Positions 1,406 through 55,387 of a stretch of 64,000 nucleotides of DNA are shown here, in pieces (the first letter of the stretch is position 1; each line of letters begins with the position of its first letter). Below the pieces are notes generated by a model. It worked only from the letters and a program-made list of their open reading frames with translations, did not search any database and was not told the DNA's origin. This stretch comes from a virus. Where the stretch lies: IMG/VR virus record IMGVR_UViG_3300032265_003779, positions 23,591-87,590 of that record. One strand, written 5' to 3'. Both the position numbers and the translations under genes were made by a program.

Positions 1406-3985
1406 TCATTGTGTTTGTTTATCTTTAACTCCCGGTTGACCTTTAAGTTCTAAAACATGAAGTTCATCTTCGGCTCTTGTGCGACCAATATATTTATTAT
1501 TCATTTCTTGCTCTAGATCTTCTTGTCTTGTTGATCTGGGGTGTGGCCACATATCATCTCTCAATATATAAACACGTTGGAACTGCAGACCTTTTGATTT
1601 ATGAACCGTGGAAAGTATTACTGGGTTTAATTCTTTTACCTTCTTTTTATAATCAGCACGATCACGGTCACCCTGAGGACCAGATTTTTCAAGGTCTAAA
1701 CCTCCAAATTTATCACTTAACCATCTTTTCAGACTATCGATATTTCCATCCGGAGACTCTTGCATAAATTGCTCGGAAGCAGAATACAAAGCATCTGTGA
1801 TTTCTTTCAATTCTTTTAATTTTCCTGACATAGCCGCCTTGCCAGAGTGCTTTTCAACTTGTTCTTCATTGTAATTATACATAGCCATTAACAACTCATC
1901 AACACTAGATGAATTATTTAATTTAAATAATTCAATGATCTTTTTGATGTGTTTGTCTAGGTCGTTAGCAATATCTTTACCAAGAATAATAAAAGGTATA
2001 CCATCTTTCATTAAGCGTAAACTAGCATGGACCAAAGGTTCATTTGTTCTTGACAAGAAAGCTGTTTGTTTAACCTCTCCCATATCACGCATTTCACTGT
2101 TTAAAGTTTCGAAAGCTTCTTCGTAGTTTATTTCACCATTTGTTGCCTGTCCTTTGCCAATTTTTCCCGGACCTTCTTTAAATTCTCTGCCTTTGGATAA
2201 ATTGGAGACGTGTCCCATTTTTCGCCCCTCTTCATTTGTCATATCTATGACAGCCTGTCTAGATCGGAAATTCTGTGTGATCTCTTTTTCCACATCTTTT
2301 TCATGAGATTGGTCCTTCAACATACTAGATAATTGATCAAATGCTCCAGAGTCTGCACCCCTGAATCTGTATATTGCTTGATTAGGATCTCCTACAGCAA
2401 CAATTTTAGCTCCATTTTCTGCCAATTTTTTAAGAATTATTTGTTGGGCTACATTAAAATCTTGGACCTCATCAGCAAATACAACTTCATATTTAGGCCA
2501 CTTAAATTCATCTGCATGAATTGCAGAGAACCATAAGTCATCATCAAAGTCTCGTTTTGTTCCCAAAACTTGCTCTACACCTGCGTGGGGTTCTTTATCA
2601 GCAGTGAATTTTTCTTGAGATGCATGAGGCATTACTTCATTTAAGAGCCAGGATGTTGCTTTTATTAATTCTTCTGTGAAGTCTCTTTTTGTAAAATCTT
2701 CTCCCATCAGCTTATTGATATACTCTGCTGCCCAAGGTGAATTTTTTTGAATCCTTTCTTTTATGTTATCGAGATTTGTATTTAAATCATACTTTTTCAT
2801 TATTTCTCTTAAATCACCATCTAATTCTTGTTTATTTCTTGGATCGGCAGCAAAAGACTTGGCCAAACCTAAAAATTTCAATGCTTCTGATTTAAATTCA
2901 ATGTTAATACTTCTTAATATATACCACAAACTTTTTTCTGTTGAACCGAGTCTTTTGGGATCATCTCCATAAACTTCTTCTTGATTTGGGATGTTTAATG
3001 ATTTAATGAGTTTTTTAAATCCTTGTGAGTCTGCGACCATCCTGGACTTCTCTTTAAAACTAAAACTTTGAATTCTATCTGTAGGTTTTAAATGATTTTT
3101 CCCCAGAATTTCTCTGCCTGCGAAACCATTAGTGGTTTCAACCTGTGTTGTTGGTGGAAATTCGTCTTTAGCCTCAGCTCTATTTTTAGAATTAAAAACT
3201 AAATATAACCATTTTTTACCTTTTCCAAATTTCCAAGCTAAGTGTTTCAATACTGTGGTTTTACCACTACCTGCCAAAGCATTAATCACCATATGAGACT
3301 GTTGGGGGCTGGCAAGCATTTTGACAAACTTATCTTCTATTGCTTTTTGCTCTGGTGTAATTCTTTCTTCTGGAATGGTTTGACTTCCGGATTTTTTTGG
3401 GGGTGTGATAGCTTCCAGAACTTCACTGGGCTTTTTTCCTTTTACGAATTGCCCCAACTCATTTTTTTGACTTTTTACTATGTTTTTAATTTCCATAGCA
3501 GGAATTAAACCTCTGGAGACTAACCTTCCTTCTTCTGGGTCAAGAATCACAAACATCCAATTTTGTTCATCTTTTTTCTTCATTGCTAGATCTAGGTCTA
3601 CTGCCGGGATTCCATACTCATTATTAATCATAATAGATTTTGCCCAAATCCATTCATGTAGCACATCCAGCGTGGCTCTAACTGGTGCCGATTTGGTTTG
3701 TAAAGAGGAAGATTGAGTAGATCTTGATGGAATAGAAGATTGGGTGGGTTTTGGTTGAGAAGAAGATTGAGTAGGTTTTGGAGGGGAATTCATTGCAATA
3801 ATTTTTTTATCTACGGGATGATACCAAACCGTATCGCCCTTAGAGAATTTTCCGTATTTATCATCAAAAGGAACCTTCCATTTAAACCAACCTGGTCCTG
3901 GGGATTCATTGCCTTCGTCAAACTTTTCTTCATTAATAAACCATTCTTTAAAACAGATTGACAACCATTTATTAAATTTGTTCAT
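1406..3985 (-). CDS. UvrD/Rep superfamily 1 helicase with N-terminal extension
   Basis: ALAGSGKTT, DEVQD, VGDPNQAIYRFRGA, NFRS, STVHKSKGLQF, YIGRTRA motifs. Confidence 0.93.
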   Translation of the reverse strand: MNKFNKWLSICFKEWFINEEKFDEGNESPGPGWFKWKVPFDDKYGKFSKGDTVWYHPVDKKIIAMNSPPKPTQSSSQPKPTQSSIPSRSTQSSSLQTKSAPVRATLDVLHEWIWAKSIMINNEYGIPAVDLDLAMKKKDEQNWMFVILDPEEGRLVSRGLIPAMEIKNIVKSQKNELGQFVKGKKPSEVLEAITPPKKSGSQTIPEERITPEQKAIEDKFVKMLASPQQSHMVINALAGSGKTTVLKHLAWKFGKGKKWLYLVFNSKNRAEAKDEFPPTTQVETTNGFAGREILGKNHLKPTDRIQSFSFKEKSRMVADSQGFKKLIKSLNIPNQEEVYGDDPKRLGSTEKSLWYILRSINIEFKSEALKFLGLAKSFAADPRNKQELDGDLREIMKKYDLNTNLDNIKERIQKNSPWAAEYINKLMGEDFTKRDFTEELIKATSWLLNEVMPHASQEKFTADKEPHAGVEQVLGTKRDFDDDLWFSAIHADEFKWPKYEVVFADEVQDFNVAQQIILKKLAENGAKIVAVGDPNQAIYRFRGADSGAFDQLSSMLKDQSHEKDVEKEITQNFRSRQAVIDMTNEEGRKMGHVSNLSKGREFKEGPGKIGKGQATNGEINYEEAFETLNSEMRDMGEVKQTAFLSRTNEPLVHASLRLMKDGIPFIILGKDIANDLDKHIKKIIELFKLNNSSSVDELLMAMYNYNEEQVEKHSGKAAMSGKLKELKEITDALYSASEQFMQESPDGNIDSLKRWLSDKFGGLDLEKSGPQGDRDRADYKKKVKELNPVILSTVHKSKGLQFQRVYILRDDMWPHPRSTRQEDLEQEMNNKYIGRTRAEDELHVLELKGQPGVKDKQTQ

Positions 3986-4073
3986 TTCATAATCCTTTTT
4001 AAAACCACGACTTATTTATGACAAATATTTTAAAAAAATAATATATATCTTTACAAATCATAAAGGAAATTAA

Positions 4074-7000: not shown

Positions 7001-7472
7001 GACAAGGTCAGAGGCACAAAATATTGCAACTAAGTTCTTGGAAGTAATAGGATTAGGGAGTTGCTCAGTAAAAACATATGAATTAGACCTTAGCCCAGAC
7101 AATCCAGAAACAATTCACAATTATAACTATTATGGTGAAGGCAATATGGATACAGCTATAATAGTTGATCCCATTACTGGTAAACGTAGATCTCTACAAA
7201 GAACTGGGTATTTTGAAATAACTGACAATTGTGGAAACAGAAAAGTTGTTTCAGCTAGAGATGGGGAGACATTTACCAATTCAACAAATTGGGAAGATGC
7301 AATATCTCAGTCTATAGTTGGTCCAACGCCAACAGCTACACCAACAGCTACACCAACAGCTACACCAACAGCTACACCAACAGCTACACCAACAGCTACA
7401 CCAACAGCTACACCAACAGCTACACCAACAGCTACACCAACAGCTACACCAACACCAACCTCTACACCATAA
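4074..7472 (+). CDS. Large putative virion/adhesin-like protein: lectin-like N-terminal domain, delta-60 (DUF5122-type) propeller repeats, C-terminal PTAT tail
   Basis: Repeated QxDGKIhVGGxF...RLNSDGSxDxSF units; SD AAGGA; C-terminal PTAT x10. Confidence 0.8.
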   Translation: MKTYTSDLTSKPDWLGTYGDQTGKTLDTDFGFGVDGMYFNGNAGGGSGDNPATGYSVRTNFNISGYQVCEVIFTADHSDSCTDQGICFYNDGQSPNWNWDPDSSRIAFSLNCPIPYIYGTNKFVNNSGEYYGNSTEQSGSEVLGSGIYTFKVTYNPIARTVTAITYEGEDTSGTVLDTIVLHEKLMNGGSYRIGFDADNDEGTAYFKSLKINVYETNGISDNTELNNQLSSLKTGYYQVTDLVEGPFLFSDDADIDGGDGDGIDPNFNELGIGTTVCIQEDGKIVVGGLSGTLDGSKYLRRIDVSGNEDESFTPPSFGLNGMVNSVVQMSDGRLVVGGNFLNVERFDGLSNSGSITFDTDYQGGTGINGNGLFLPPSANIVEVGWTVTFRDSSTRTVISSYFNELNFWTVGLDSNITLNPAFPLTISQPNWKPTIDGNIVNISGMVCLKTDGSLSKRDGGDVGFEDRAISGVPLQVYAIKLLNDDSVLVGGHFTHYDGVESPFLAKIGSDGVIDEGFATNIISLSLDNGVSSIAIDSNGKILIGGTFSEAIKRLNSDGSVDSSFEPGTGFTGNTFQQNGVFSILPFDNGQMLVGHSSKYYNGTLCGNGLVRLNGDGSLDVSYTADLYNSHSNIGTVTSIVQQENGKVIVGGYFNLADGFSANEIFRLNSDGSKDESFNSVFGFTPAGYNWGPATNDIKLDSVGNVYVAGSFTDYNHAARFQYAKLDTNGTLQEWSVLPAFKQVGIDDGMDDMYDGANFLNTNLTLPYLYIKCYGGNNVVSGGEGACGCPEPPVICGLNANSSIPSTHTQAWDQGPEDDFYDESRGSDETGSDDIEWPEHRYLPVCDSHVMVADGYFGDGSSYFTAMFPGMFVLAANNIDITQFSITGNIGSDGDGADVAEIFPINVGGNTYTAYLKTNYGAGDPSINHIIIVDGDGNGIEQFYDPTSEGDEHCITGIEGKTKLFFLCLGKANGVAMTRSEAQNIATKFLEVIGLGSCSVKTYELDLSPDNPETIHNYNYYGEGNMDTAIIVDPITGKRRSLQRTGYFEITDNCGNRKVVSARDGETFTNSTNWEDAISQSIVGPTPTATPTATPTATPTATPTATPTATPTATPTATPTATPTATPTPTSTP
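7329..7448 (+). repeat. 12-bp tandem repeat CCAACAGCTACA x10 (PTAT)
   Basis: Perfect tandem copies. Confidence 0.97.
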
Positions 7473-7738
7473 TGAAAAAGTTAAATTTTAAACAATGGTT
7501 TGAAAGTGGAGGAGGATTTATAGGTCAGTCAATGACTGATCCTGTTGATGACCATCCTCCAGCCGGAAGTGAAATAACTACTGATCCTTTCTATAGACCA
7601 GGTGATTCTCCTCCAACAAACAATAACAAAAAAAGAAAATTAAGAAAATTTAAAGTTGCCAAATTTGGATTTGATGCTGATGATGGCGGAGATAAAGTAG
7701 CAATAAGAAAAGAAGTATTACCAAACTACTTTATGTAA
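7472..7738 (+). CDS. Hypothetical protein with N-terminal tag (MKKLNFKQWFES)
   Basis: ATG overlaps the upstream TAA (TAATG); the track's longer ORF is a shadow of the repeat. Confidence 0.75.
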   Translation: MKKLNFKQWFESGGGFIGQSMTDPVDDHPPAGSEITTDPFYRPGDSPPTNNNKKRKLRKFKVAKFGFDADDGGDKVAIRKEVLPNYFM

Positions 7739-8543: not shown

Positions 8544-8669
8544 ATGACTATAATCTTATATCATGTAGCAATATTTTTATCTTTATTTGTTTTTATATGG
8601 CTTGGTATTTTTTGGATTACAGCCTGTTATGTGTTATTCGAAAATAAAAAAATCAACGATCATCAGTAG
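8544..8669 (+). CDS. Small single-TM protein, 41 aa (not in the ORF track)
   Basis: MTIILYHVAIFLSLFVFIWLGIFW...; TATATA box 5 nt upstream of the ATG. Confidence 0.5.
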   Translation: MTIILYHVAIFLSLFVFIWLGIFWITACYVLFENKKINDHQ

Positions 8670-8928
8670 CAATATTTTTAAATCTACTTAAAGAAACGTT
8701 GGGATTTTTTAACATATTTTCAAATAAAGCATTTGCTTTTGCGGTATGTATTTTTTTCCAAGCACTTTTTCTTGTTTGAAGAGTGTATTTTTTAAATACT
8801 TTTTGTATAGCCGCAGCCAGATCCATAACAGCATCAACTCTGTTGGAGTCTGACTGTGATAATTTTTTATCATCTTTTTTTGATGACTTTTTGTCTTCGT
8901 TTATAATCCACTCATTAAAACTTTTCAT
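8653..8928 (-). CDS. Hypothetical basic protein with N-terminal tag (MKSFNEWIINE)
   Basis: ATGA-coupled to the upstream gene. Confidence 0.8.
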   Translation of the reverse strand: MKSFNEWIINEDKKSSKKDDKKLSQSDSNRVDAVMDLAAAIQKVFKKYTLQTRKSAWKKIHTAKANALFENMLKNPNVSLSRFKNIATDDR

Positions 8929-9284
8929 GGAGCTGAAAACTCCGAATCCATACTTGGCTTCTTAATAACATTGTCCATCGAATCGCCAGATTCTGAACCC
9001 GAGACACCGGTATCATCTCCAGAATGCTTTCTGGCAGCAGCTCTTAACTTGTTTACATCTATCTGGTCGTAAAGTGCTTTCATGCTTGGATCTCTGCTAC
9101 TGAGAGTTCTTAGCATTGTCATTAATCGACTCATATCAGAAGAAGCAGCTTGCATAACTAAATTCACCACAGTTGATACTGCTGCCTCTTGGTCGGCATC
9201 ATATGAAGCATTTCCAAAACTTGTTTCTAATTCACCTCTTAATCCTGTGTCCATCGCTTCTAAAAACTTGTGAAAACTCTTCAT
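8925..9284 (-). CDS. Hypothetical protein with N-terminal tag (MKSFHKFLE)
   Basis: SD AGGA; TATATA box upstream. Confidence 0.8.
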   Translation of the reverse strand: MKSFHKFLEAMDTGLRGELETSFGNASYDADQEAAVSTVVNLVMQAASSDMSRLMTMLRTLSSRDPSMKALYDQIDVNKLRAAARKHSGDDTGVSGSESGDSMDNVIKKPSMDSEFSAP

Positions 9285-9479: not shown

Positions 9480-11261
9480 ATGAAGCGTAAATTAATCAGC
9501 TATGATGCCTTAAAGAAAATGGAAGAGGCATCCATTTCTAAAATTCAGGAAGAATTGATAAATGCCGAAGAAGTTTTGGCAAATGTTCTGGGTGCCGACC
9601 AGCTTGAACTCGTTTTCTTTAACGAATCAGAGGCTGTTTATAAAACCCTTGATCAAGACTATGTTCGTGCCAATTACAGTGTTGTAAAAGGTGAACTAAA
9701 GCTAGAGAACATCGAAGAGCTTGTAGTAGACGAAGATAGCGAGAAAGGTGAGTCAAAAAAGCTTATCTCCTCGATGATTGATGACCTTGTTGAAAACAAA
9801 GATGAAGAAGCAAGTGCCAAGCTAGATGAGTATCTAGGTCTTGCTGTTGTCCGAAGAAATTTAATTGAAGGATATAAAGCTAAGCTTAGCAATCCTCATG
9901 GAAAACGCAGCAAGCTGTTCCATAAGCACCAAAGAGGAGCACATGTCAGAAAGCGTATTGTTGCCATGATGAAGACTAGGCGTAAGAGAAAAGGAATAAA
10001 GAATTATCTAAAGACCAAAACTGCTCCTATGCGTAAACGACTCAAGGGAATCAGCAATCCAAGAGCAAGAGTTTATGTTGTTAAGACTATGAAAGAATGG
10101 AATAACTTAACAGAGAATGTTCTTGGATATGTTAATTACAAAGAAATGGGTCCACTTTACAAAGAATGCACAATTTCACATGACGATAAAGGTGAAGTAA
10201 ATGCAGTCACAATTCCAACAAAACTAAAGAAGAATGAAGGCAAGATTCTTAGTTTTGACTGGAAGACTATGGACACAGAAGTAAAGGTTTTAAGAAACAA
10301 AGCCAAGAAGCTTAATGAGAACGAAAGATTTATTAGAAGTGTTGTAGAGATCAAGAAGCACAACAATGTTTCAAATAACAGCGGTCTTGAAACTGCTCTT
10401 GAAAATACTGTTGGAGCTTTCCCTGAAGCTCTTTATCTAACTCAAGAAGAAATGGCTGCCACAGTCAAGTCTTGCCTTGAAATGGCTGGATCAAGAAACT
10501 TTGATGATAACACTTGTGATTTTATTGCAGAGGCAATTCTTAGAACAGCTTTTGATGCTTACTCTGAAAGAGTCAACAAGATGGTAGGAATAGCTGGTGT
10601 AAGGCTTGAAAGCACCGACAAATATGTTGAATTCAAAGATGTTGCTAACAAGCTATACAACTATGTTGATGCTTCACAGGAAAAAGATCTAAGCGTGTTC
10701 TCTGATCTTGCCGAAGCTCTTAACAATCTTGCTAAACTTGCTGAAAGTCTTGGTGATGCCGAAGTAGTAACCGAAGCAAAGACTTTACTACAGGAATGCA
10801 TTTACGTTATTAACCAGGAAGTAGAACCAGATGTTCAGTTAGCCGAGTTTGTTGCTAATTATTTAAGAGATATCTACGAGAGTAATTTAAACAGTAAGGA
10901 ATGGGAGCCAATGGATCCAGTGGTATCACCAACAGGTGATCACCCAATGCTTCATGCTCATGCCAAACAAGGTTACTCACCAGCCTCTGATGGTCAGGAT
11001 GACTCAGTAGTAGATTCTGGTAGGGGCTCTGTAAGTGACGGAAAAAATATCAAGAATAATCTTGGTGATGAAATGATGAATAATGGATGGGGTAACATTG
11101 GTGGAGATAGCGTTTATCCTTCACTAAGCAATCCATACTTACTCAAAGACATGGACTTTACCATGAAGGGTGATAAGGGAGTTGACATGGATAGTGATGA
11201 TCTTGGCACAGAACAAGGTAAGGACACTTGGCCAAATCTTCGTAATCCTTTTGCCAAATGA
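9480..11261 (+). CDS. Putative prohead core/internal head protein
   Basis: First gene of the head operon, directly before the protease; Glu-rich helices with a basic internal segment; SD GGGAG. Confidence 0.55.
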   Translation: MKRKLISYDALKKMEEASISKIQEELINAEEVLANVLGADQLELVFFNESEAVYKTLDQDYVRANYSVVKGELKLENIEELVVDEDSEKGESKKLISSMIDDLVENKDEEASAKLDEYLGLAVVRRNLIEGYKAKLSNPHGKRSKLFHKHQRGAHVRKRIVAMMKTRRKRKGIKNYLKTKTAPMRKRLKGISNPRARVYVVKTMKEWNNLTENVLGYVNYKEMGPLYKECTISHDDKGEVNAVTIPTKLKKNEGKILSFDWKTMDTEVKVLRNKAKKLNENERFIRSVVEIKKHNNVSNNSGLETALENTVGAFPEALYLTQEEMAATVKSCLEMAGSRNFDDNTCDFIAEAILRTAFDAYSERVNKMVGIAGVRLESTDKYVEFKDVANKLYNYVDASQEKDLSVFSDLAEALNNLAKLAESLGDAEVVTEAKTLLQECIYVINQEVEPDVQLAEFVANYLRDIYESNLNSKEWEPMDPVVSPTGDHPMLHAHAKQGYSPASDGQDDSVVDSGRGSVSDGKNIKNNLGDEMMNNGWGNIGGDSVYPSLSNPYLLKDMDFTMKGDKGVDMDSDDLGTEQGKDTWPNLRNPFAK

Positions 11262-11277
11262 AATAAGGAGATAAAAA

Positions 11278-11976
11278 ATGAGTAAAGAAATACTATTCGT
11301 AGACAGCTGCAGTAACTCTGGTTTTACTCTGAGTCTTAATGAGTCCGTTAGTGATAAAGGACTCACTAAGTTCAAAGGTAAGTTCCAGGAAGCCGAAGCA
11401 ATTAATAAGAATAAAAGAATGTATCCTTTTGGTGTTCTCAGCGAGAATATTAAAAAACTACAGGAGTGTGTTAAAAATAGAGGCTTGATTGGTGAATTAG
11501 ACCATCCAACAGATAGTATTATTCACTTTGAAAAAGCAAGCCATGTTATTACAAAACTTTGGTGGGAAGGAAATGTATTGATGGGTGAAGGAGAAATCCT
11601 TAATACTCCTCATGGAAAAATATTGAAAAGTCTTTTGAACGATGGTGTAAGAATTGGTATTAGCAGTAGAGGTGTTGGTAATGGTAAGGTTGACGAAAAT
11701 GGCATTCTTGTAATTGGAGAAAGTTACAAGCTTATCACTTTTGATGCTGTAGCCGATCCAAGTACTCATGCTGCTTATCAAGAAAAAGTATCGAGCCCAT
11801 CAGCTAAAAAAGAAGGCTCAATGGTTAATATAGAAAATTCTTCTGCGGATGAAGAATTTTCAAGAAAAAATGAAAGCAGAAGCATATATAAGGGTAATAA
11901 GCAAGCCTTAATTGCATGCTTGGGAACACTAATAGAAAATTCAACTAATTCATTAAAGCGAGGTATAGGCTCATGA
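11278..11976 (+). CDS. gp21: Prohead maturation protease (T4 gp21-like)
   Basis: NKNKRMYP, GELDHP, GISSRGVG, TFDAVADPS motifs. Confidence 0.95.
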   Translation: MSKEILFVDSCSNSGFTLSLNESVSDKGLTKFKGKFQEAEAINKNKRMYPFGVLSENIKKLQECVKNRGLIGELDHPTDSIIHFEKASHVITKLWWEGNVLMGEGEILNTPHGKILKSLLNDGVRIGISSRGVGNGKVDENGILVIGESYKLITFDAVADPSTHAAYQEKVSSPSAKKEGSMVNIENSSADEEFSRKNESRSIYKGNKQALIACLGTLIENSTNSLKRGIGS

Positions 11977-12869
11977 ATCAAAAAATCAAAGAGGCACTTG
12001 AAAAACTATTGCCTGAAGATCAGTTAAGTGAAGTAGTTTCAGCCATTGAGGAAATGCTTGCTGAAGCTAAGACTAGTTTGGAAGAGGAGTTTAACTCCAA
12101 GCTTGAGGAAGCTTATTCTGAGCTTTCAAAAGAACTAAAAGATGCTGAGTCAACTGCTGAAACTGGATATGCCGAAGCATATTCAATCATCAGTGAACTA
12201 AGAAACCGTCTTGAAGTTCAAGGTGAAGAGTATGAGGCTGCTCTTGAAGAGGGTTATGAAGAAGCCTATGGAATGCTCAAAGAAGAGAGAAGCAAGAACA
12301 AAGATCTCGAAGTTTCTCTTTACGAAGAGTATGACAGCAAACTCGCTGAAATGAAGGAATACATTGTCGATAAAGTAGATCAGTTCCTACAGTTCAAGGG
12401 TAGCGAAATTTATGAACAGGCTAAACACGATCTAGTCAATGATCCAAGAACCAGTGAATATAAGAGTGCTTTTGATAAGATCGTTGATATTACAAGTGAT
12501 TACTTAAGTGACGAAGATCATGCAGTCGCTTCAACAGGCAAGCTTGAAGAAGCTAAGAAGGCTGTTGATGATCTTAAGGGTCAGATTAAGCTTCTAGAGG
12601 CTAGAAGTATCCGTTTAAGCACAGAGAACACCAAGCTTAATGAAGCTGTTAGAAGTGCTCACAATGTTATTAACGAACAAAAAGAAACTGTTGTTAAGAA
12701 CAAAAAAGAAGACGTATTAAATGAACAGAATGAAAGAGCCGAAAAGAGTAAGAAAGTATCGGGGAGAGGACAACTAGTTGCTGGTGAAGCTATCATTGCG
12801 GAAAATGCTAGCGAAGACAGCAGCTTTAACGATTTACAAGTCTTAGCTGGTGTTAGAAAAACCAATTAA
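11973..12869 (+). CDS. gp22: Prohead scaffold protein (T4 gp22-like)
   Basis: Acidic coiled coil located between the protease and the capsid gene. Confidence 0.8.
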   Translation: MNQKIKEALEKLLPEDQLSEVVSAIEEMLAEAKTSLEEEFNSKLEEAYSELSKELKDAESTAETGYAEAYSIISELRNRLEVQGEEYEAALEEGYEEAYGMLKEERSKNKDLEVSLYEEYDSKLAEMKEYIVDKVDQFLQFKGSEIYEQAKHDLVNDPRTSEYKSAFDKIVDITSDYLSDEDHAVASTGKLEEAKKAVDDLKGQIKLLEARSIRLSTENTKLNEAVRSAHNVINEQKETVVKNKKEDVLNEQNERAEKSKKVSGRGQLVAGEAIIAENASEDSSFNDLQVLAGVRKTN

Positions 12870-25654: not shown

Positions 25655-25673
25655 AATAATTATTTATCCGTGT

Positions 25674-29915: not shown

Positions 29916-29939
29916 AATACTTATATATATTGTATTATG
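29913..29939. promoter_or_regulatory. Palindromic bidirectional late promoter between back-to-back start codons
   Basis: CATAATAC-ttatatatatt-GTATTATG. Confidence 0.6.
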
Positions 29940-38884: not shown

Positions 38885-39345
38885 GTTTTTGGACCTCGTT
38901 TTAAACTGACTGGCTTTAATTTATCTTGATATCTATCTGGTTGGTCCTTTAAGTCCTGTAGCAGCTTATAAGCCTCTTTGCTTATTTCGCTTGCTGTTTT
39001 GCCGCTACAGCTTTCTGTTTTTATTACAGAAACAGCTTTATTGCTTTTATTATAAAAACCTCTGGATATTACGAAACATTTATTTTTAAAATCCCAACTT
39101 ACAATAGCAACCCATTCTCCATCATCCCAATTTCTAGTGGCTATTATCAGCCTATAAGGCTGTTCTGAGTATACATGTTTTGTGTGAAAACCATAATTTT
39201 TCATTGCAGCACTAACAAAGCCCAACGCTATCTTAGAGTATGCATCTAAGACTTCGTTGGGTTCTGTTCTGTAGTTTATAGATATGCTATATCTGGATAA
39301 ATCTACACTTTCTTCTAGTTTCCAATCATTAAATGATTTCATCAT
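38881..39345 (-). CDS. Hypothetical protein with N-terminal tag (MKSFNDWKLEE)
   Basis: Coupled to gp13. Confidence 0.8.
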   Translation of the reverse strand: MMKSFNDWKLEESVDLSRYSISINYRTEPNEVLDAYSKIALGFVSAAMKNYGFHTKHVYSEQPYRLIIATRNWDDGEWVAIVSWDFKNKCFVISRGFYNKSNKAVSVIKTESCSGKTASEISKEAYKLLQDLKDQPDRYQDKLKPVSLKRGPKT

Positions 39346-43200: not shown

Positions 43201-44266
43201 AATCTTCATAGATATGAAGAACCCATTTATAAGACGTGCGCAAGATGGATCTAAAGTTGCATTGTTGAGATTTGGATGGAGAGCAAATCCTTCAGAAGCA
43301 ATAGAGCAAGAAGATAGTATTGAAAATCATATTTATAAATATTCTAAATTATTAGAATCTGCAAATACTCTTTTGTCAGGATCAGATAAAACAAACAAGA
43401 TTGTTTTTGATAAAATTATAGATAATATTGAAAATGAAAAAAATAATCTACTTTCATTTTGGGACGATTTTTATAATCTAGCTCTAAATAAGTTTAATGA
43501 TTCAACCAAAGATAAATCTACCGATAGCTATAAAACAATTCTAGATTATTTTAGTGAATCCGATGAAATAACTCGTAAAAAAGTATCTAGTCTATATGAC
43601 AGCGTAACACAAAAGATGTTAGCAAAAGAAGATGTAATTGTAACTTCTATATCTTTTGATACAAACGAATCTATTAATAATATAGTGTCAACAAAAATAG
43701 AAGATTTAAAAATAATATTCAATCAAATAAACGATATTATAAAAGAAGATCCAGAAGTAAAAATTACTTCAACACCTTTTACTGCAAAGGGCAGAGGTCC
43801 TGGGGTGAGTAAAGATGAGACTGATGATGAGTACAAAGAAAGAAGAAGACTTTGGTTTCAAAAAATTGGTTATATAGCACCTATAGTTCCTGTTAAGATG
43901 AATGCAATGGAGAAGCCAATAGTTTATTGGGCTAGATTAGTAAAAGAATTATTTGTGTATCTTAATCATCACACGAATAAAAATCACATAGAAAGTGATA
44001 TTGATACTCGTCTAACGATTCAAAAATTTATTGCAATAAAACTGGGTGGTATATCTAGATTATCTAGAGATCTTAAGTATCCTGTACATTCATTCTTTGA
44101 CAGAATAGATAAAAATATAAAAGAACTTAGTGAAATTTTCAATAAAAATAAGGATAAATTAAGTCTTTCTATAGGAGAAAAAGAGTCTATAATAAAAACT
44201 ATAGGAATGTTTTCTGGGTCTATACCTAATTTGAAAGGCACATTGTTTAAGAGTCTACAGAAGTGA
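40247..44266 (+). CDS. 1339-aa hypothetical protein with N-terminal tag
   Basis: Long ORF with SD AAGGA; MYNFKEFF...FKMLLE. Confidence 0.85.
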   Translation: MYNFKEFFNKNCTFKMLLEAYRGWHSEKPILYDYEDLDFLYQIDQKYWEDALKARYMKTWELLKNRENIRNKIIKEMIDASKASGFLKVVKTPAKNVMGFKKSTKFNVDENNVNEFKEFLLKISNRYDSYGKEVGSVNEKEASERKRWIDDFFERYDIETITPGGSKDNYKTIRNLIFDIIKRIVIYVKGGDEEKYLAGGSINIKFYINRLIQKLETTEGEAHYLKTKLVNLSKIYKKDMYFEPQGKYGFDLSLPRRKTIITNNEEGKPEKETTYGFDSSGFYFPKSTGIRDSLSRLMSLNYQRHLPNETGSGDLPSDSPEKMHDVTYKIVRSKMGKVKRYKDTFIFDVFQKKFANQIAKFVSNNSDINWYDDKVKEMLEGSLDSEKEMEEINSGVWLVKSILNNPNAGVEKANEISKQLKKIFHGTVYGADKKLYDREVIDYTKKEDNKIGPATLRNITKFENIKKIRKLKDMFSEYFATLRATDTLEKIKLSGPKILSTMETGDAEKDAEIIRKELTLLDSRDKDELKTILGEEDWKKFIKTGRLPYKIDKDTKEILVGGEHPPIVLPHVTVKDENGVHSFPLLNPGSFVMPLKMLTSEELEDIDRTKREIQDNINSYSELKNINLDDDEELESLLNSIEKQPKYKNLDNKDFKQKLNKLIKIIKSQKEAENRKITTSRSSSVLGEKGEATPIIQYHKADRYARERGSIVPGHRPRSAMSMPSSPQEIKTMIGYYKIFSSTQRENQPTTIVNPRGGTLIDGGTWKTINKIFEKNPEKKPDKETVNPMRFYVYDIFNKAERDLEGNKQLESVNLNNFILIKEFKINEAKEAYYEIEKSKDDSGGARDQIEGWDDIVEGMKLFLLRKMYGGNELDSGVKEKYLKPRKFQDIHDEIAAEFVKEASSPTLWSPEARRIAAAGIIGKIAQKETGFRDVKDDDDDDEIKQVARKRRTGQGAEKTEKSSSRLDISPLNSSSSGGKDVLKLIFIDMKNPFIRRAQDGSKVALLRFGWRANPSEAIEQEDSIENHIYKYSKLLESANTLLSGSDKTNKIVFDKIIDNIENEKNNLLSFWDDFYNLALNKFNDSTKDKSTDSYKTILDYFSESDEITRKKVSSLYDSVTQKMLAKEDVIVTSISFDTNESINNIVSTKIEDLKIIFNQINDIIKEDPEVKITSTPFTAKGRGPGVSKDETDDEYKERRRLWFQKIGYIAPIVPVKMNAMEKPIVYWARLVKELFVYLNHHTNKNHIESDIDTRLTIQKFIAIKLGGISRLSRDLKYPVHSFFDRIDKNIKELSEIFNKNKDKLSLSIGEKESIIKTIGMFSGSIPNLKGTLFKSLQK

Positions 44267-51482: not shown

Positions 51483-52022
51483 CTACTTTTGAGCAACCAA
51501 AAAATTATCATTTTCTTCATCTGAATATAAAATATAATTTGAATTATTAGAAACCAATTCATTGTTCTTGTTAATAACATCAAAATTTTGTTTTGAAGAT
51601 TGATTATATCCTTTGACTTTATATTTATTTGCAAGTTTAACCCATAAAGATTTAGCTTCTGGTGTTTGCATTTTATCGCTATAAAGTTTTGTTTTAGATA
51701 AAACATAGTCATACATAATTGATGCCAAACCTTTTCCTCTGGCTTGTGGTTTCACACCTAGAGTGCTAATTTTATATCCATCTTCAAATTTTTCTAATCC
51801 CACATATCCCGTTGCATTATTTTTGTCATAAACTATAACTTTAACGCCATCTGGACCTTCTGACCATTGAAAATCAAAATTTAAAAATTTTTCTCTATTT
51901 AAATTAATTTTGTCGGCTTCGGATTTTGCCCAATCAATAAATTGATCGTAATTTATCGAAGATTGTAAGAGTGACGAATTATTTTTTATTTCTTTTAATA
52001 TTAAATATTGCTTAAAATTCAT
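51483..52022 (-). CDS. GNAT-family acetyltransferase with N-terminal tag
   Basis: GVKPQARGKGLASIMY motif A; SD..QTPEA..LW. Confidence 0.75.
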   Translation of the reverse strand: MNFKQYLILKEIKNNSSLLQSSINYDQFIDWAKSEADKINLNREKFLNFDFQWSEGPDGVKVIVYDKNNATGYVGLEKFEDGYKISTLGVKPQARGKGLASIMYDYVLSKTKLYSDKMQTPEAKSLWVKLANKYKVKGYNQSSKQNFDVINKNNELVSNNSNYILYSDEENDNFLVAQK

Positions 52023-52024: not shown

Positions 52025-52579
52025 TTAAACTTCTTTAATATTCCAAGTTCCACCTTCTCCGGGGTCTGGGATGAATTCTTTGTTCTTTTTATAAGATGGC
52101 TTTCCTTTTAATTTAGTTATATCCCAAGGAGATTTTTCTCCAACAGTAAACTTGGGGGGCTTATCTCCCTTAATGTGCTTTATACTCCATATTCCTCCTT
52201 CTCCTTGATCTGGGGTGAATTCTTTATTCTTTTTATATGTGGGAGCACCTTTAATATGCTTTATGTTCCACATTCCTCCCTCTCCATTGTTAGCAGCCAT
52301 TCCATGCTTATCAGGAGCTTTAGGAGTATCTTTTGGACCTTCTAGCTTGCTTATATCCCATAACCCTTTATCGCCAGAGTTTAAGTATTGATTCTGAAGT
52401 TTATGATTTTTAAAGTTATAGATTCTATCATCTAGTGATAAGTAAAAAATAGCATCAGCACTTCTTGTGATATACCATTGTGGTGGATAAAGACCTATTC
52501 CACCATAACCTAATGGATAGAGTCCTGTTTTAGATCCTGGGTTGGATCCCTCATTTAATAACCACTCTTTAAAGTTCAT
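52025..52579 (-). CDS. Protein with N-terminal tag and GEGGxWxIK repeats
   Basis: MNFKEWLLNE; five WxI repeats. Confidence 0.8.
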   Translation of the reverse strand: MNFKEWLLNEGSNPGSKTGLYPLGYGGIGLYPPQWYITRSADAIFYLSLDDRIYNFKNHKLQNQYLNSGDKGLWDISKLEGPKDTPKAPDKHGMAANNGEGGMWNIKHIKGAPTYKKNKEFTPDQGEGGIWSIKHIKGDKPPKFTVGEKSPWDITKLKGKPSYKKNKEFIPDPGEGGTWNIKEV

Positions 52580-52594
52580 ACATTATATATTAAT

Positions 52595-52789
52595 TTATTT
52601 TCGTTTTTTGTGTTTTTTGTGTCTAGGATATTGTCTTCTTACAACATCTGATCCTATTGGACGTAAAAACGGTGCTATATCTTTTGAAGTTGTGGCTCCA
52701 GGGCTGCCTGAAATTGAAGCAGAAGTTGTTGCCGCTGGTGCGGCGGCAGGTGCGGCAACATCTTCTAGCCATTTCTTAAAACTTATCAT
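52595..52789 (-). CDS. Small protein with N-terminal tag (MISFKKWLE)
   Basis: ATGA-coupled; Ala-rich with a basic C-terminus. Confidence 0.75.
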   Translation of the reverse strand: MISFKKWLEDVAAPAAAPAATTSASISGSPGATTSKDIAPFLRPIGSDVVRRQYPRHKKHKKRK

Positions 52790-53715
52790 TTACTTTTTTT
52801 ACCATGTTTCTTTTTGCAAACTAAGTATTCTTTTAATGAAAGTTTATATTTTGATGTTTCTTTATTTTTCTTTAAGTGATCTTTGCAGTCTTTAAAAGAA
52901 GCATTTGGCTTTTTTCCAAAACAATCCTTCATGCATTTTTCAGCCATTGACTTCATATCATCACTTGAATCGGTTGAGTCATCAGAGTCTGAGTCATTTT
53001 CTTCATCAGAATCTTCTTTTTTAGACTTTTTAGATTCAGATAATTCCTCATAAGTAGTAAAATTGTCAGATATTCTACCATTTGGAGCAAATCCAACTTC
53101 TCCTGGGGCTGGTTCGTCTCCCAAGCCACTAAAATGTTTGGCTGTTGGGTTTCCCATTTGCCCAATTATGCTTCCCATCCAATCTTTTTCAGCAGAAACT
53201 TCAATAGAGTCTGTTGATTCATTTTTCTTTTTCTTTTTATTTTTTGAAATTTCTTTCTTCTTTCTTAATATCTCAAAATCTTTTCCAGTTATTTTACCAT
53301 CACCATCAGCATCTAGTTTTTTCTGTCCGCCCTTTAAAAATTTAGGCTTTTCGTCCTCATCTTCATCTTCGTCTTCGTCTTCAATATCTTTATCTTCTTT
53401 TTTAGCCTTAGCTTTTTCTAAATCTACGTCATCTTCGTCAGAAAACATTGCTTTGCATGATTTGCAAGCTTTACAACCCTTGCTACAGCCACATTCTTTT
53501 TTTGAATTTGGTTCATCTGCTTTGCTGGCTGGGGGTACTGTTTCTCCGTCACCTGTAACGTCTACTTTAACTTTTTTCTTTCTTCTTCCTTCTTCAAAGT
53601 CTATTCCTTCAACACCGTTTGAAGAAATACCTAAAGATTGTGGTTGAGATAAACCTAAAGAAAAAGAACTAAAAACTGACTCATTTAATGATTTCCACTC
53701 TTTATAGCTAAGCAT
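52786..53715 (-). CDS. Highly charged protein with N-terminal tag, EF-hand-like loop and Cys cluster
   Basis: MLSYKEWKSLNE; LDADGDGKITGKDF; CGCSKGCKACKSC. Confidence 0.8.
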   Translation of the reverse strand: MLSYKEWKSLNESVFSSFSLGLSQPQSLGISSNGVEGIDFEEGRRKKKVKVDVTGDGETVPPASKADEPNSKKECGCSKGCKACKSCKAMFSDEDDVDLEKAKAKKEDKDIEDEDEDEDEDEKPKFLKGGQKKLDADGDGKITGKDFEILRKKKEISKNKKKKKNESTDSIEVSAEKDWMGSIIGQMGNPTAKHFSGLGDEPAPGEVGFAPNGRISDNFTTYEELSESKKSKKEDSDEENDSDSDDSTDSSDDMKSMAEKCMKDCFGKKPNASFKDCKDHLKKNKETSKYKLSLKEYLVCKKKHGKKSK

Positions 53716-55108: not shown

Positions 55109-55192
55109 CAAAATTCTAAATTATTTTTACATATTTTTTAATATATAAGAATAGATATTTTGCACACCTGCAAATAAAGAGGTAACAAAACT

Positions 55193-55387
55193 ATGAAGAG
55201 TTTTATTGATTATTGCTCAAACAACAAAAAAGAACTACCTGTTTTTGTTATTGATGAAAAAACAAAAAGAGGTGGAATAGCAACATGGGCTTATCCTGAT
55301 GCTTACGTAAGAACACAATATCCAGATTCTTACTTCTTGCCAATTGCTGCCGATGCTCTATTTAAGCTAAAGGGCGGAAAAAAGTAA
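55193..55387 (+). CDS. Small protein with a weaker N-terminal tag (MKSFIDYC)
   Basis: SD GAGG; YP..Y...YP...ADA.F.L shared with 52025-52579. Confidence 0.75.
   Translation: MKSFIDYCSNNKKELPVFVIDEKTKRGGIATWAYPDAYVRTQYPDSYFLPIAADALFKLKGGKK

What the first reader, a model, noticed from the sequence alone, without database searches (positions are those of the whole stretch)
1406..55387. Shared N-terminal capsid-targeting-like tag on about 19 unrelated proteins: a candidate head-packaged enzyme cargo system
SEEN: the following genes share no other homology (apart from the paralog pairs reported separately) yet begin with M-x(1-3)-F-x-x-[WFY]-L-x(0-3)-E (number = start coordinate). UvrD helicase MNKFNKWL..FKEWFINE (3985); MKKLNFKQWFE (7472); MKSFNEWIINE (8928); MKSFHKFLE (9284); MNFKHWLLILNE (23311); MKSFNQWLE (23379); MKFKKYVEE (23726); MTFFKHWLFLNE (25654); HD hydrolase MEFKLWLE (26342); MKFNKWLE (29915); flavodoxin MKNFIQFLLE (29937); zincin MRFKLWLE (30670); MKSFNDWKLEE (39342); 1339-aa MYNFKEFF..FKMLLE (40247); GNAT MNFKQYLILKE (52022); MNFKEWLLNE (52579); MISFKKWLE (52789); MLSYKEWKSLNE (53715); weaker MKSFIDYC (55193). 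UvsX, gp32, gp41, sheath, tubes and neck proteins lack the tag. Six tags end in (L/I)NE, matching RLINE in the gp23 N-terminus and LSLNE in gp21. KNOWN: T4 internal proteins IPII/IPIII carry the capsid-targeting sequence MKTYQEFIAE, which gp21 removes after Glu. INFERENCE: this phage uses a modular tag to load a helicase, phosphohydrolase, acetyltransferase, flavoprotein, protease and metal binder into the head for delivery at infection. That would be a much larger and more enzymatic cargo than T4's.
Basis: partly seen in the sequence, partly recalled or inferred. Interest (0 to 1): 0.9.

Follow-up and report, generated by a model that had tools for sequence, protein, structure and literature searches.

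The report
T4-type capsid-targeting tag, greatly expanded
Nineteen otherwise unrelated genes in this fragment of an uncultured freshwater T4-related phage begin with the same short peptide, which matches the tag phage T4 uses to load proteins into its head, so this phage probably packs an unusually large, enzyme-containing protein cargo, although packaging has not been measured.

Summary
All 19 listed genes start with M-x(0-4)-[FY]-x-x-[WFY]-[LIFKVC], and 18 have a Glu 2-7 residues later. A strict regex hits 12-14 of 115 ORF starts in the 87.6-kb contig. It hits 0 of 342 internal Met and 1 of 265 decoy ORFs, and shuffled N-termini give a mean of 0.7. Codons vary, so selection acts on the peptide.

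The motif matches the T4 capsid targeting sequence read from the T4 record (ipII/ipIII MKTYQEFIAE). The match falls on the residues reported to matter in T4: 4 and 7 for targeting, 8 and 10 for processing (PMC9026906). The window encodes a gp21-type protease, a gp23-type capsid protein and a gp55-like late sigma factor. [LIF]NE, which ends six tags, is also enriched in the head-module proteins.

The tag is kept in a 595-kb relative and in metagenomic homologues of the HD hydrolase and the helicase. It is absent from cellular-type helicases. T4 gives 5 of 277 hits and a cultured Flavobacterium phage 1 of 230.

Packaging and cleavage are inferred, not shown. This scan has found the same phenomenon on other DNA: e1-5408298, e1-5757282, e1-5748134 and e1-5806885.

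The parts
1406..3985 (-). Tagged SF1/UvrD-like helicase, 859 aa. N-terminus MNKFNKWLSICFKEWFINEE holds two tandem tag copies. About 215 residues, including a Ser/Pro/Gln-rich linker, precede the helicase core.
   Evidence: N-terminus. Pfam UvrD-helicase 3.9e-18 (starting at residue 227) and UvrD_C 9.5e-17. phrog_1967 DNA helicase 1.1e-66. Homologues: 53 of 92 phage-type are tagged, 0 of 28 cellular-type.
7472..7738 (+). Tagged 88-aa protein, MKKLNFKQWFE. Its start overlaps the stop of the 1132-aa gene by one base.
   Evidence: No Pfam or PHROG family.
8653..8928 (-). Tagged 91-aa Lys-rich protein, MKSFNEWIINE, resembling an internal protein.
   Evidence: PWM score 12.7 with a matrix trained on another phage.
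8925..9284 (-). Tagged 119-aa protein, MKSFHKFLE|AMD, the closest in form to T4 ipII/ipIII. It is divergent from the putative portal gene.
21341..23311 (-). Tagged 656-aa protein of unknown function, MNFKHWLLILNE.
   Evidence: No Pfam family, no PDB sequence match.
23379..23585 (+). Tagged 68-aa Cys-rich protein, MKSFNQWLE.
   Evidence: Top PWM hit of the whole contig, 18.0.
23586..23726 (-). Weakly tagged 46-aa ORF, MKFKKYVEE, coupled to the upstream gene.
   Evidence: PWM 10.5.
23723..25654 (-). Tagged 643-aa protein. MTFFKHWLFLNE is followed at residue 17 by a second copy, NFNKWLE.
   Evidence: The second copy scores PWM 14.5.
25674..26342 (-). Tagged HD-domain phosphohydrolase, 222 aa, MEFKLWLE.
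   Evidence: Of 67 homologues, 53 carry the tag and the PF01966 outgroup P0068 does not. F3 is at least 90% conserved and the H/HD/H/H/D columns are invariant. AF2 model pLDDT 92.5, with the tag in helix 3-15 and pLDDT 64 over the first 10 residues. Fold matches are to the HD superfamily, all with E>0.001.
29433..29915 (-). Tagged 160-aa basic protein, MKFNKWLE. A further tag-like KKFSEWLKNK sits at its C-terminus.
   Evidence: phrog_727, unknown function, 2e-19. PWM 12.6 and 12.3.
29937..30653 (+). Tagged FMN-reductase/flavodoxin-like protein, 238 aa, MKNFIQFLLEE.
   Evidence: ESM Atlas structure matches to PF03358 clusters at TM 0.72, aligned only from residue 17-28 onward. No Pfam or PDB sequence hit.
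30670..31260 (+). Tagged 196-aa protein with an HEATHE (HExxH) motif, MRFKLWLE. Candidate zinc metalloprotease.
   Evidence: The motif is conserved in the LR756511 homologue, which starts MRTWHEFVKAVDE after an internal Met. The Atlas gives only a lead, 0.85 to Peptidase_M85.
38881..39342 (-). Tagged 153-aa protein, MKSFNDWKLEE, downstream of the gp13-like neck gene.
   Evidence: Its LR756511 homologue is 60% identical and begins MLNFKDYVEE. The stretch between tag and conserved body is 16 residues longer there.
40247..44266 (+). Tagged 1339-aa protein of unknown function, MYNFKEFFNKNCTFKMLLE, with further internal tag-like copies.
   Evidence: PWM 12.7 at residue 3, 12.6 at residue 115, 12.1 at residue 474. 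No Pfam, PHROG or PDB match.
51483..52022 (-). Tagged GNAT acetyltransferase, 179 aa, MNFKQYLILKE.
   Evidence: Pfam Acetyltransf_1 1.2e-06, residues 41-110. phrog_3810 acetyltransferase.
52025..52579 (-). Tagged 184-aa protein, MNFKEWLLNE, with a 'LYP..Y' block shared with 55193.
   Evidence: Three LR756511 homologues start MDFKGWFYTE, MLFNEKEH and MNKLDFKLWIEH.
52595..52789 (-). Tagged 64-aa protein with a basic tail, MISFKKWLE.
   Evidence: PWM 15.7.
52786..53715 (-). Tagged 309-aa highly charged protein, MLSYKEWKSLNE.
55193..55387 (+). Weakly tagged 64-aa protein, MKSFIDYC.
   Evidence: Its LR756511 homologue has MVKTFMQWAEE.
11278..11976 (+). gp21-type prohead maturation protease, with LSLNE at residues 18-22. 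Proposed to remove the tags.
   Evidence: phrog_207 head maturation protease 3.7e-49. Sequence.
11973..12869 (+). Putative scaffold (gp22 position), acidic and probably coiled-coil, with three [LI]NE sites. Proposed docking partner of the tags.
   Evidence: Lies between protease and capsid gene. 49% identical to the LR756511 gene in the same position. No PHROG family. [LIF]NE sites.
12919..14349 (+). gp23-type major capsid protein, with FLNE at 7-10 and RLINE|SA at 44-48.
   Evidence: phrog_138 3e-85. 31% identical to T4 gp23 from residue 53. 74.8% identical to LR756511.
9480..11261 (+). Putative portal, by position upstream of the protease.
   Evidence: 39% identical to the LR756511 gene in the same position. 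No PHROG family at E<=0.001.
38381..38884 (+). gp55-like late sigma factor.
   Evidence: phrog_234 late sigma transcription factor 7.5e-06.

Best explanation
The shared N-terminus is a T4-type capsid targeting sequence (CTS), a short propeptide of about 8-12 residues.

Proposed mechanism. The two aromatic residues, three apart (F then W/F/Y), dock the nascent protein onto the scaffolding core of the assembling prohead. The following hydrophobic residue and Glu form the site where the phage's gp21-type prohead protease cuts the tag off once the shell has closed. The mature proteins stay in the head with the DNA and are expected to enter the host at infection. They include an SF1 helicase, an HD phosphohydrolase, a GNAT acetyltransferase, an FMN-reductase-like protein, an HExxH protein, several small charged proteins that resemble T4 internal proteins, and large proteins of unknown function.

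Shown:
- The motif exists, is non-random and sits on unrelated protein bodies.
- It is conserved at the peptide level.
- It corresponds residue for residue to the T4 CTS.
- T4-type head genes are present.
- The [LIF]NE motif is enriched in both tags and head proteins.

Inferred:
- Docking to the scaffold.
- Cleavage after Glu.
- Retention in the virion and injection.
- How many of the 19 proteins behave this way.
For: 1. Same determinants as T4. The T4 record gives ipII/ipIII MKTYQEFIAE|A and ipI MKTFKEF.... The review PMC9026906, section 2.6 (passages read), reports from Mullaney & Black 1996 that residues 4 and 7 carry targeting and residues 8 and 10 carry processing. Here those positions are F (18 of 19), W/F/Y (19 of 19), a hydrophobic L/F/I/V (16 of 19) and a nearby Glu (18 of 19).

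2. T4-type head machinery in the same window. The protease matches phrog_207 at 3.7e-49 and the capsid protein phrog_138 at 3e-85. A gp55-like late sigma factor is present.

3. A shared cleavage-like motif. [LIF]NE occurs in the first 20 residues of 6 of 19 tagged proteins (binomial P 7e-6). It occurs 8 times in the 1599 residues of putative portal, protease, scaffold and capsid protein, against 1.7-2.4 expected (P 0.0004-0.003). One copy is RLINE48|SA, five residues before the capsid protein starts to align with T4 gp23. I place T4's own cut at LTE65|A; the LTE is read, the cut position is recalled. LR756511 has LFNE|IA at the same place.

4. Peptide-level selection. Ser, Leu, Phe and Glu codons differ between tags and the tag length varies.

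5. Conservation in relatives.
- The strict regex hits 41 of 1107 ORFs in the 42%-GC relative LR756511.
- All 4 tagged window proteins that have homologues there match tag-bearing proteins.
- A PWM trained only on LR756511 tags places window tags at 8 of its top 10 hits in the contig: 7 N-terminal tags and one tandem second copy.
- 53 of 67 HD-family and 53 of 92 helicase-family metagenomic homologues carry the tag. Many of the rest look like truncated or mis-started gene calls.
- The HD outgroup with PF01966 and 0 of 28 cellular-type PcrA/UvrD carry it.

6. Modularity. The tag lies outside the folded domain. The Atlas structure alignments for the FMN-reductase-like protein start at residue 17-28. 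The first 10 residues of the HD model have pLDDT 64 against more than 90 elsewhere. The helicase core starts at residue 227.

7. Specificity.
- Identified tail, neck and replication proteins of the window lack the tag. The out-of-window primase is an unresolved case, listed under evidence against.
- T4 gives 5 of 277: ipII, ipIII, gp61.1 and two hits I read as chance.
- Phage immuto gives 1 of 230.

8. Timing. A T4-late-like box TATA[TA]A[TA] lies within 70 nt upstream of 11 of 19 tagged genes, 25 of 95 other genes (Fisher P 0.013) and 1 of 10 genes in the replication cluster.

9. Turnover like the T4 internal proteins. 3 of 15 tagged ORFs have a BLASTP hit in LR756511, against 46 of 89 untagged ORFs. 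That count files the tagged HExxH protein, which has a hit, among the untagged because its ORF call is longer.
Against: - No virion proteome, N-terminal sequence or expression data exist for this phage or any relative, so packaging and cleavage are untested.
- No RNA run holds the sequence.
- The late-promoter enrichment is modest, and the box is short in AT-rich DNA.
- Two tags are weak (23726, 55193).
- In 8 of 19 tags the Glu directly follows W-L, so P3 is Trp rather than the Leu/Ile I recall as T4's preferred P3. The protease's real specificity is unknown.
- A helicase kept with its tag across most relatives could act in the cytoplasm rather than as cargo.
- The DnaG-type primase outside the window (Toprim) and its LR756511 homologue begin MGIFENFQKWAED and MVDFDSFVDWCED. 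These fit the motif. A replication primase is not an expected cargo, and I could not decide whether this is a tag or the family's own N-terminus.
- The cultured relative immuto (capsid protein 37% identical) lacks the tag, so no laboratory system is at hand.
- A lead from earlier notes, that the scaffold's repeat unit resembles the tag, was not reproduced. No scaffold position is among the top 45 PWM hits.
Confidence: 0.7

Rival explanations
1. The peptide is a docking or sorting tag for a hub other than the prohead. Candidates are a phage chaperone, a replication or assembly compartment, or a cytoskeletal element (this contig also encodes an actin-like protein according to an earlier unchecked note). 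Its likeness to the T4 CTS would then be convergent: a short amphipathic helix with two aromatic residues.
For: - Two DNA-metabolism enzymes carry it or something like it: the UvrD-like helicase and possibly the primase.
- The tag is modelled as an N-terminal helix, residues 3-15, which could bind many kinds of partner.
- No direct evidence of packaging exists.
Against: - The motif matches T4's CTS at all four experimentally defined positions.
- It ends in the Glu-containing motif that is also enriched in the head proteins.
- Most carriers are small charged proteins or enzymes with no link to replication.
- Recognised replication proteins (UvsX, gp32, gp41-like helicase) lack it.
Confidence: 0.15
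2. The tag does target proteins into the prohead core. Most carriers are then transient assembly factors or core fillers that are degraded and expelled at maturation, as T4 gp22, gp67 and gp68 are. They would not be cargo delivered to the next host.
For: - Several carriers are small, highly charged, low-complexity proteins (8653-8928, 52595-52789, 52786-53715).
- [LIF]NE sites are frequent in the scaffold.
- In T4 most core mass is degraded (passage of PMC5694885 read).
Against: - Folded enzymes with intact catalytic motifs carry the tag. The HD protein keeps its invariant ligand columns, and the helicase and GNAT have full Pfam domains.
- In both large families checked, most homologues down to about 30% identity carry the tag: 53 of 67 HD and 53 of 92 helicase. 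That argues for a function of the mature protein.
- T4 CTS proteins (the IPs) and Alt are retained and injected.
Confidence: 0.1
3. The motif is not a protein signal at all. It would be a by-product of AT-rich codon usage at starts, a repeated DNA element or recombination hotspot at gene starts, or a translation-initiation enhancer.
For: - The genome is AT-rich, 29-39% GC in 4-kb windows.
- Many carriers sit just downstream of similar TATA-type boxes.
Against: - Codons for the conserved residues differ between genes.
- Shuffled N-termini give 0.7 hits against 12-14 observed.
- AT-rich T4 and immuto give 5 of 277 and 1 of 230, while the 42%-GC relative gives 41 of 1107.
- Homologues at 30-40% identity keep the peptide.
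Confidence: 0.02

Closest known systems
Capsid targeting sequence (CTS) of phage T4 internal proteins IPI, IPII and IPIII (Mullaney & Black 1996, known to me through the reviews PMC9026906, PMC3012670 and PMC5694885, passages read)
   Same: An N-terminal propeptide of about 10 residues placed directly after the start Met. Aromatic residues at positions 4 and 7, a hydrophobic residue at 8 and Glu near 10. It is fused to unrelated protein bodies. The same genome encodes a gp21-type protease and a gp23-type capsid protein. The cargo genes turn over quickly between relatives.
   Different: T4 has three IPs plus one further CTS-like ORF, gp61.1. This fragment has 19 in 64 kb, and a 595-kb relative has about 40. 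The second aromatic is mostly Trp rather than Phe. Tag length varies and tags are sometimes doubled. The cargo includes recognisable enzymes (SF1 helicase, HD hydrolase, GNAT, FMN-reductase-like) and proteins up to 1339 aa. None of the bodies matched a PHROG internal-virion-protein family. Function here is untested.
CTS-like basic proteins of other T-even phages (T2, T6 and others), as summarised in PMC9026906 section 3.1
   Same: Different relatives carry different proteins behind a conserved CTS. The review itself suggests the CTS is a general way for T4-like phages to load varied proteins.
   Different: Those are a few small basic proteins in close relatives of T4 that infect enterobacteria. 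This is an uncultured freshwater lineage, with a capsid protein 31% identical to T4 gp23, dozens of carriers and enzyme cargo.
Long N-terminal propeptides of ejection and inner-head proteins in giant phages SPN3US, phiKZ and 201phi2-1 (PMC5694885, passages read)
   Same: Many head-internal proteins, including enzymes, are loaded during assembly and trimmed after Glu by a related prohead protease.
   Different: Those propeptides are about 80-130 residues long and are not one shared short motif. Here the tag is the short T4 type.
Phage P1 Dar antirestriction proteins packaged in the head (recalled; PMC9024508 and PMC12810830 seen only in search listings)
   Same: Precedent for a large helicase-domain enzyme (DarB, recalled) carried in a myovirus head and injected to protect incoming DNA.
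   Different: Different head lineage and a different incorporation pathway, with no shared short Glu-terminated tag that I know of. Not compared here.

Membership tests
T4-type capsid targeting sequence (CTS) | Located at the extreme N-terminus of the precursor | tested here: met
   The first aromatic is residue 3, 4 or 6 in 19 of 19. The regex hits 0 of 342 internal Met.
T4-type capsid targeting sequence (CTS) | Targeting determinants at residues 4 and 7, aromatic in IPIII (Y4, F7) | tested here: met
   F or Y in 19 of 19, and W, F or Y three residues later in 19 of 19. T4 sequence. Determinants from PMC9026906.
T4-type capsid targeting sequence (CTS) | Processing determinants: a hydrophobic residue at 8 and Glu at 10, cut after Glu | tested here: inconclusive
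   The sequence requirement is met: L/F/I/V in 16 of 19, Glu within 2-7 residues in 18 of 19. The spacing varies, and cleavage itself cannot be tested.
T4-type capsid targeting sequence (CTS) | A gp21-family prohead protease and a gp23-family shell encoded by the same phage | tested here: met
   phrog_207 3.7e-49 and phrog_138 3e-85. BLASTP to T4 gp23 2e-41.
T4-type capsid targeting sequence (CTS) | The same cleavage motif is used in the head structural proteins | tested here: met
   [LIF]NE occurs 8 times in 1599 head-module residues against 1.7-2.4 expected, and in 6 of 19 tags. RLINE48 lies just before the capsid protein's conserved core. That these sites are actually cut is inferred.
T4-type capsid targeting sequence (CTS) | Portable: fused to unrelated bodies and absent from homologues outside the phage lineage | tested here: met
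   Carriers belong to unrelated families or to none. 0 of 28 cellular-type helicases and the PF01966 outgroup lack it.
T4-type capsid targeting sequence (CTS) | Late expression together with the head genes | tested here: inconclusive
   The late-like box lies upstream of 11 of 19 tagged genes against 25 of 95 others, P 0.013. A gp55-like sigma factor is present. There are no transcript data.
T4-type capsid targeting sequence (CTS) | Protein found inside the mature head, tag removed, injected with the DNA | not testable with these tools
   No cultured member and no proteome. A cultured distant relative lacks the tag.
T4 internal proteins IPI/IPII/IPIII (homology of the mature bodies) | Sequence similarity of the mature protein to a T4 IP | tested here: not met
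   None of the 19 bodies matched a PHROG annotated as an internal virion protein at E<=0.01. Only the tag is shared, as also between the T4 IPs themselves.

The most novel reading that the evidence does not exclude
A lineage of uncultured, mostly huge, freshwater T4-related phages has turned the T4 capsid targeting sequence into a general address label. With it the phage pre-loads its head with a large enzyme-rich 'starter proteome'. This fragment carries at least 19 such proteins and a 595-kb relative about 40. They include an SF1 helicase, an HD phosphohydrolase, an acetyltransferase, a flavoprotein-like enzyme and a putative metalloprotease. These would be injected with the DNA to act before any phage gene is expressed, for example against host defences. 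If so, the tag alone would let one read the injected proteome of uncultured phages from sequence.
Probability: 0.45. Interest if true: 0.8.

Novelty: new variant of a known kind. Interest (0 to 1): 0.65.

Why it matters
Proteins that a phage injects with its DNA act first in an infection, and several known ones disarm host defences (T4 IPI and Alt). They are hard to find without virion proteomics.

If this tag works as in T4, it marks such proteins directly in sequence data from uncultured phages. It would also show that some T4 relatives carry far more cargo, and more enzymatic cargo, than the model phage: roughly one gene in five in this fragment. That would give a testable catalogue of candidate early-acting effectors and a natural toolbox of packaging tags.

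I found no open-access paper linking 'capsid targeting' with 'huge phage' (0 papers). The 5 papers that link it with 'jumbo' concern other phages or only cite the term. Subscription journals and supplementary files were not searched.

Tried and rejected
Complex prediction. Two scaffold copies plus residues 1-45 of the HD protein (alignment A1) gave 'no answer', score 0.01 against a mark of 0.32. This is neither for nor against binding.

Sequencing runs. No RNA holder is listed for window 9480-14349, so nothing can be said on expression. Contigs from four DNA runs were laid on 21300-31300. They show relatives in lake-water metagenomes; for example one 2351-base contig differs at 191 positions. 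Only 40 of about 1050 differences were printed. One of those, 25622, lies in a tag codon and is synonymous (AAT to AAC by my reading). This is too little for a selection test.

Function searches that led nowhere:
- PDB sequence searches for 29937, 30670, 21341 and 40247 gave nothing better than E 0.02.
- Foldseek of the HD model gave no match at E<=0.001. The best rows are HD-superfamily enzymes at E 0.06-0.5.
- tblastn of the HD protein against 50,697 phage records found no match.
- The second Atlas search (30670) scored only 0.85-0.86, a lead and no more.

Scaffold lead. Earlier notes e1-5408298 and e1-5748134 suggested that the scaffold's repeat resembles the tag. By eye, the scaffold has [FY]-x-x-x-L-E-E units and starts MNQKIKEALEKL. 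No scaffold position is in the top 45 PWM hits. Not reproduced here.

False or unresolved extra members outside the window:
- The large terminase (Pfam Terminase_6N/6C) contains MDFKEYYEKHY. Its LR756511 homologue reads KSLEEYYKARY in the same position. I read this as the protein's own body, not a tag.
- The primase N-terminus is left unresolved.

Cultured relative. Phage immuto gave 1 of 230 regex hits, and that one is unconvincing.

Not done. I did not use the last homologue search or the profile search against protein representatives, because two families already gave the same answer. Mullaney & Black 1996 was not read; its results are taken from the review passages. The T4 gp23 cut after Glu65 is recalled, with the LTE sequence read.

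Full report
WHAT THE DNA IS. The window is bases 23591-87590 of a single 87,590-base contig, with 29-39% GC in 4-kb windows. It encodes:
- a T4-type head module: putative portal 9480-11261, prohead protease 11278-11976 (phrog_207, 3.7e-49), putative scaffold 11973-12869, major capsid protein 12919-14349 (phrog_138, 3e-85);
- a gp55-like late sigma factor, a gp13-like neck protein and a baseplate hub;
- a gp15-like protein, a sheath and two tube proteins, UvsX and gp32;
- a gp41-like helicase.

The capsid protein is 31% identical to T4 gp23 and 37% to Flavobacterium phage immuto. It is 74.8% identical to LR756511.1, an unannotated 595,163-base 'uncultured phage' record. Gene order is largely shared with that record, so the contig is probably a fragment of, or a smaller relative of, a huge phage. 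Contigs about 90% identical occur in runs labelled lake-water metagenome.

THE OBSERVATION. Aligned on the first aromatic residue, the consensus is M-(K)-(S/N)-F-(K/N)-x-W-L-(0-5 residues)-E. The counts are:
- first aromatic: F 18, Y 1;
- second aromatic: W 13, F 3, Y 3;
- next residue: L 12, F 2, K 2, I 1, V 1, and C 1 (the C read);
- a Glu within 2-7 residues in 18 of 19.

A strict regular expression hits 12 of 115 greedy ORF starts in the contig, or 14 if the start may be reassigned. Controls give 0 of 342 internal Met, 1 of 265 non-selected ORFs, and a mean of 0.7 (maximum 4) over 1000 shuffles of the same N-termini. The codons behind the conserved residues differ: Ser AGT/TCA/AGC, Leu TTG/TTA/CTT/CTG/CTA, Phe TTT/TTC, Glu GAA/GAG. 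The tags also differ in length. What is conserved is therefore a peptide, not a DNA element. All carriers lie in the window; the first 23.5 kb of the contig has none that is clear.

CONTROLS IN OTHER GENOMES. The same ORF caller and regex were run on three other genomes.
- T4 (35% GC): 5 of 277. These are ipII, ipIII, the 54-residue gp61.1 (MKTFKEFIKE) and two hits I read as chance (61.4, gp38). Internal Met give 4 of 798.
- Phage immuto (34.5% GC): 1 of 230.
- LR756511 (42% GC): 41 of 1107, against 10 of 2439 internal Met. Its N-termini include MKTFNQWLE, MKTFSEWLEA, MKFADWLELKDE and MKNFRVWLEE.

AT-richness therefore does not explain the motif. Its frequency is a property of this lineage.

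WHAT IT MATCHES. From the T4 record, ipII and ipIII begin MKTYQEFIAE|A and ipI begins MKTFKEF. The review PMC9026906 (section 2.6, passages read) reports three points from Mullaney & Black 1996:
- the first 10 residues of IPIII suffice for incorporation into the head;
- targeting depends mainly on residues 4 and 7, and processing on residues 8 and 10;
- Asp at position 10 blocks processing but not targeting.

In the present motif those four positions are exactly the conserved ones: aromatic, aromatic, hydrophobic, Glu. PMC3012670 and PMC5694885 (passages) state that the CTS brings internal proteins into the scaffolding core and that gp21 then removes it.

LINK TO THE HEAD PROTEASE. Six tags end in [LI]NE. 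In the whole greedy proteome [LIF]NE occurs 41 times in 27,693 positions. Six of these are in the first 20 residues of tagged proteins (binomial P 7e-6). Eight are in the 1599 residues of putative portal, protease, scaffold and capsid protein, where 1.7-2.4 are expected (P 0.0004-0.003). One is RLINE48|SA, five residues before the capsid protein begins to align with T4 gp23. The T4 maturation cut after LTE65 lies twenty residues before the same alignment point; the sequence is and the cut position is recalled. LR756511 has LFNE|IA at the corresponding place. This fits a protease that cuts after [LIF]-N-E in both head proteins and tags, but no cut has been observed.

CONSERVATION AND MODULARITY. 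Four tagged window proteins have homologues in LR756511, and all of those have a tag-like start. In one pair the stretch between tag and conserved body is 16 residues longer in LR756511. A position matrix trained only on LR756511 tags, run over every position of the contig's proteins, puts window tags at 8 of its top 10 hits: 7 N-terminal tags and one tandem second copy. It also finds second, tandem or internal copies inside proteins that are already tagged.

Two families were followed into the 5.8-billion-protein collection.
- HD hydrolase: 68 homologues were found, some on contigs up to 462 kb. Of the 67 close ones, 53 carry the tag by regex. Most of the other 14 have an upstream-extended or truncated start. 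The single distant hit with Pfam HD (P0068) has no tag. In an alignment of 22 sequences, F3 is at least 90% conserved, alongside the invariant metal-ligand columns H25, H79-D80, H107, H146 and D185.
- Helicase: 53 of 92 phage-type homologues (E<=1e-47) carry it. None of the 28 distant PcrA/UvrD-type proteins does; they start directly with the ATPase core.

The tag lies outside the folds:
- The helicase core begins at residue 227.
- Atlas structure alignments of the FMN-reductase-like protein begin at residue 17-28.
- The AlphaFold model of the HD protein (pLDDT 92.5) has an N-terminal helix, residues 3-15, whose first ten residues average pLDDT 64.

TIMING AND TURNOVER. A T4-late-like box TATA[TA]A[TA] lies within 70 nt upstream of 11 of 19 tagged genes and 25 of 95 others (Fisher P 0.013). 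It precedes only 1 of 10 genes in the replication cluster. By my reading, such boxes also precede the putative portal, capsid and neck genes, and several untagged-box carriers lie in operons behind a gene that has one. In several cases the box ends 5-8 nt before the ATG with no Shine-Dalgarno sequence. This is suggestive only.

Tagged genes are less often shared with LR756511: 3 of 15 against 46 of 89 (which files the tagged HExxH protein, a hit, among the untagged). That resembles the turnover of internal-protein genes among T-even phages described in PMC9026906 section 3.1.

WHAT THE CARGO WOULD BE.
Confirmed families:
- SF1/UvrD helicase.
- GNAT.
- HD phosphohydrolase.
- FMN-reductase/flavodoxin-like fold.

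Motif-level only:
- an HExxH protein;
- a Cys-rich 68-residue protein.

The rest are small, strongly charged proteins and three large proteins (643, 656 and 1339 aa) with no family.

WEAK POINTS. Nothing shows that any of these proteins is in a virion or is cut. The Glu directly follows W-L in 8 tags, which puts Trp at P3. Two members are weak. A primase outside the window and its LR756511 homologue start with a sequence that fits the motif. I could not tell whether that is a tag. If it is, either this phage packages replication enzymes or the tag has a wider role. The terminase 'hit' is a false positive. The complex prediction gave no answer.

VERDICT. The motif is real, specific and under selection. 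It is best read as the T4 capsid targeting sequence used on a much larger and more enzymatic set of proteins (confidence 0.7). This is a new variant of a known kind. In the open-access library no paper joins 'capsid targeting' with 'huge phage', and the five that join it with 'jumbo' deal with other phages or only cite the term. This scan has already reported the same phenomenon on four other huge-phage fragments. Here it is therefore a further instance and a replication, with T4 and immuto added as controls, two protein families traced through metagenomes, and the [LIF]NE link to the head proteins.

Noticed in passing
window 29910-29942, 23312-23378, 30655-30669, 40212-40246, 52580-52594: T4-late-like TATA[TA]A[TA] boxes end only 5-8 nt before the ATG and no Shine-Dalgarno sequence is present. 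This suggests leaderless late mRNAs. One palindromic TATATATA box lies between the divergent starts at 29915 and 29937. First-stage notes e1-6112382 and e1-6112371 also report this.
   Followed up: partly
L016:18966-19130 (-), T4 gene 61.1: The 54-residue T4 protein gp61.1 begins MKTFKEFIKE. Its first seven residues are identical to ipI's, and a Glu follows in CTS register. It may be a fourth, small CTS-bearing protein of T4. I did not check whether this is in print.
   Followed up: no
window 23723-25654 (residue 17), 40247-44266 (residues 115 and 474), 29433-29915 (C-terminal KKFSEWLKNK), 1406-3985 (residues 11-19): Proteins that are already tagged carry extra tandem, internal or C-terminal copies of the tag motif (PWM 7.8-14.5).
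   Followed up: partly
contig bases 13091-14146 (-), outside the window (L024:5091-6146); LR756511 543819-544832: A DnaG-type primase (Toprim) and its LR756511 homologue start MGIFENFQKWAED and MVDFDSFVDWCED. These fit the tag motif. It is unresolved whether this is a tag or the family's own N-terminus.
   Followed up: partly
window 4074-7472 (+): A 1132-aa protein starts MKTYTSDL and ends in Thr-Pro repeats (coding for TATPTATP...). Metagenomic contigs vary in length in a similar repeat near 28530-28700. First-stage notes propose O-glycosylation, and a glycosyltransferase lies at 32940-34166 (phrog_24687, 1.3e-105).
   Followed up: no
window 52025-52579 and 55193-55387; LR756511 71311-71550, 588507-588749, 502604-502846, 487260-487520: A family of small tagged proteins shares a 'LYP..Y...YPP.Y...ADA' block directly behind the tag.
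   Followed up: no
LR756511 531014-533587 and 244357-244602; helicase homologues P0141-P0143: A second recurring N-terminus, M-[AS]-W-Y-(D/N/K)..., for example MAWYDLFKIF, MSWYNLFKIW and MSWYKR. It may be another shared tag in this phage group.
   Followed up: no
window 59474-60742 (-): One 422-aa ORF matches both HNH/endonuclease VII families (residues about 70-260) and dCMP deaminase (residues 265-412). This could be a fusion or an endonuclease inserted at the deaminase gene.
   Followed up: no
window 21300-31300: Lake-water metagenome runs hold contigs about 88-92% identical to this stretch, so close relatives are widespread in freshwater.
   Followed up: partly
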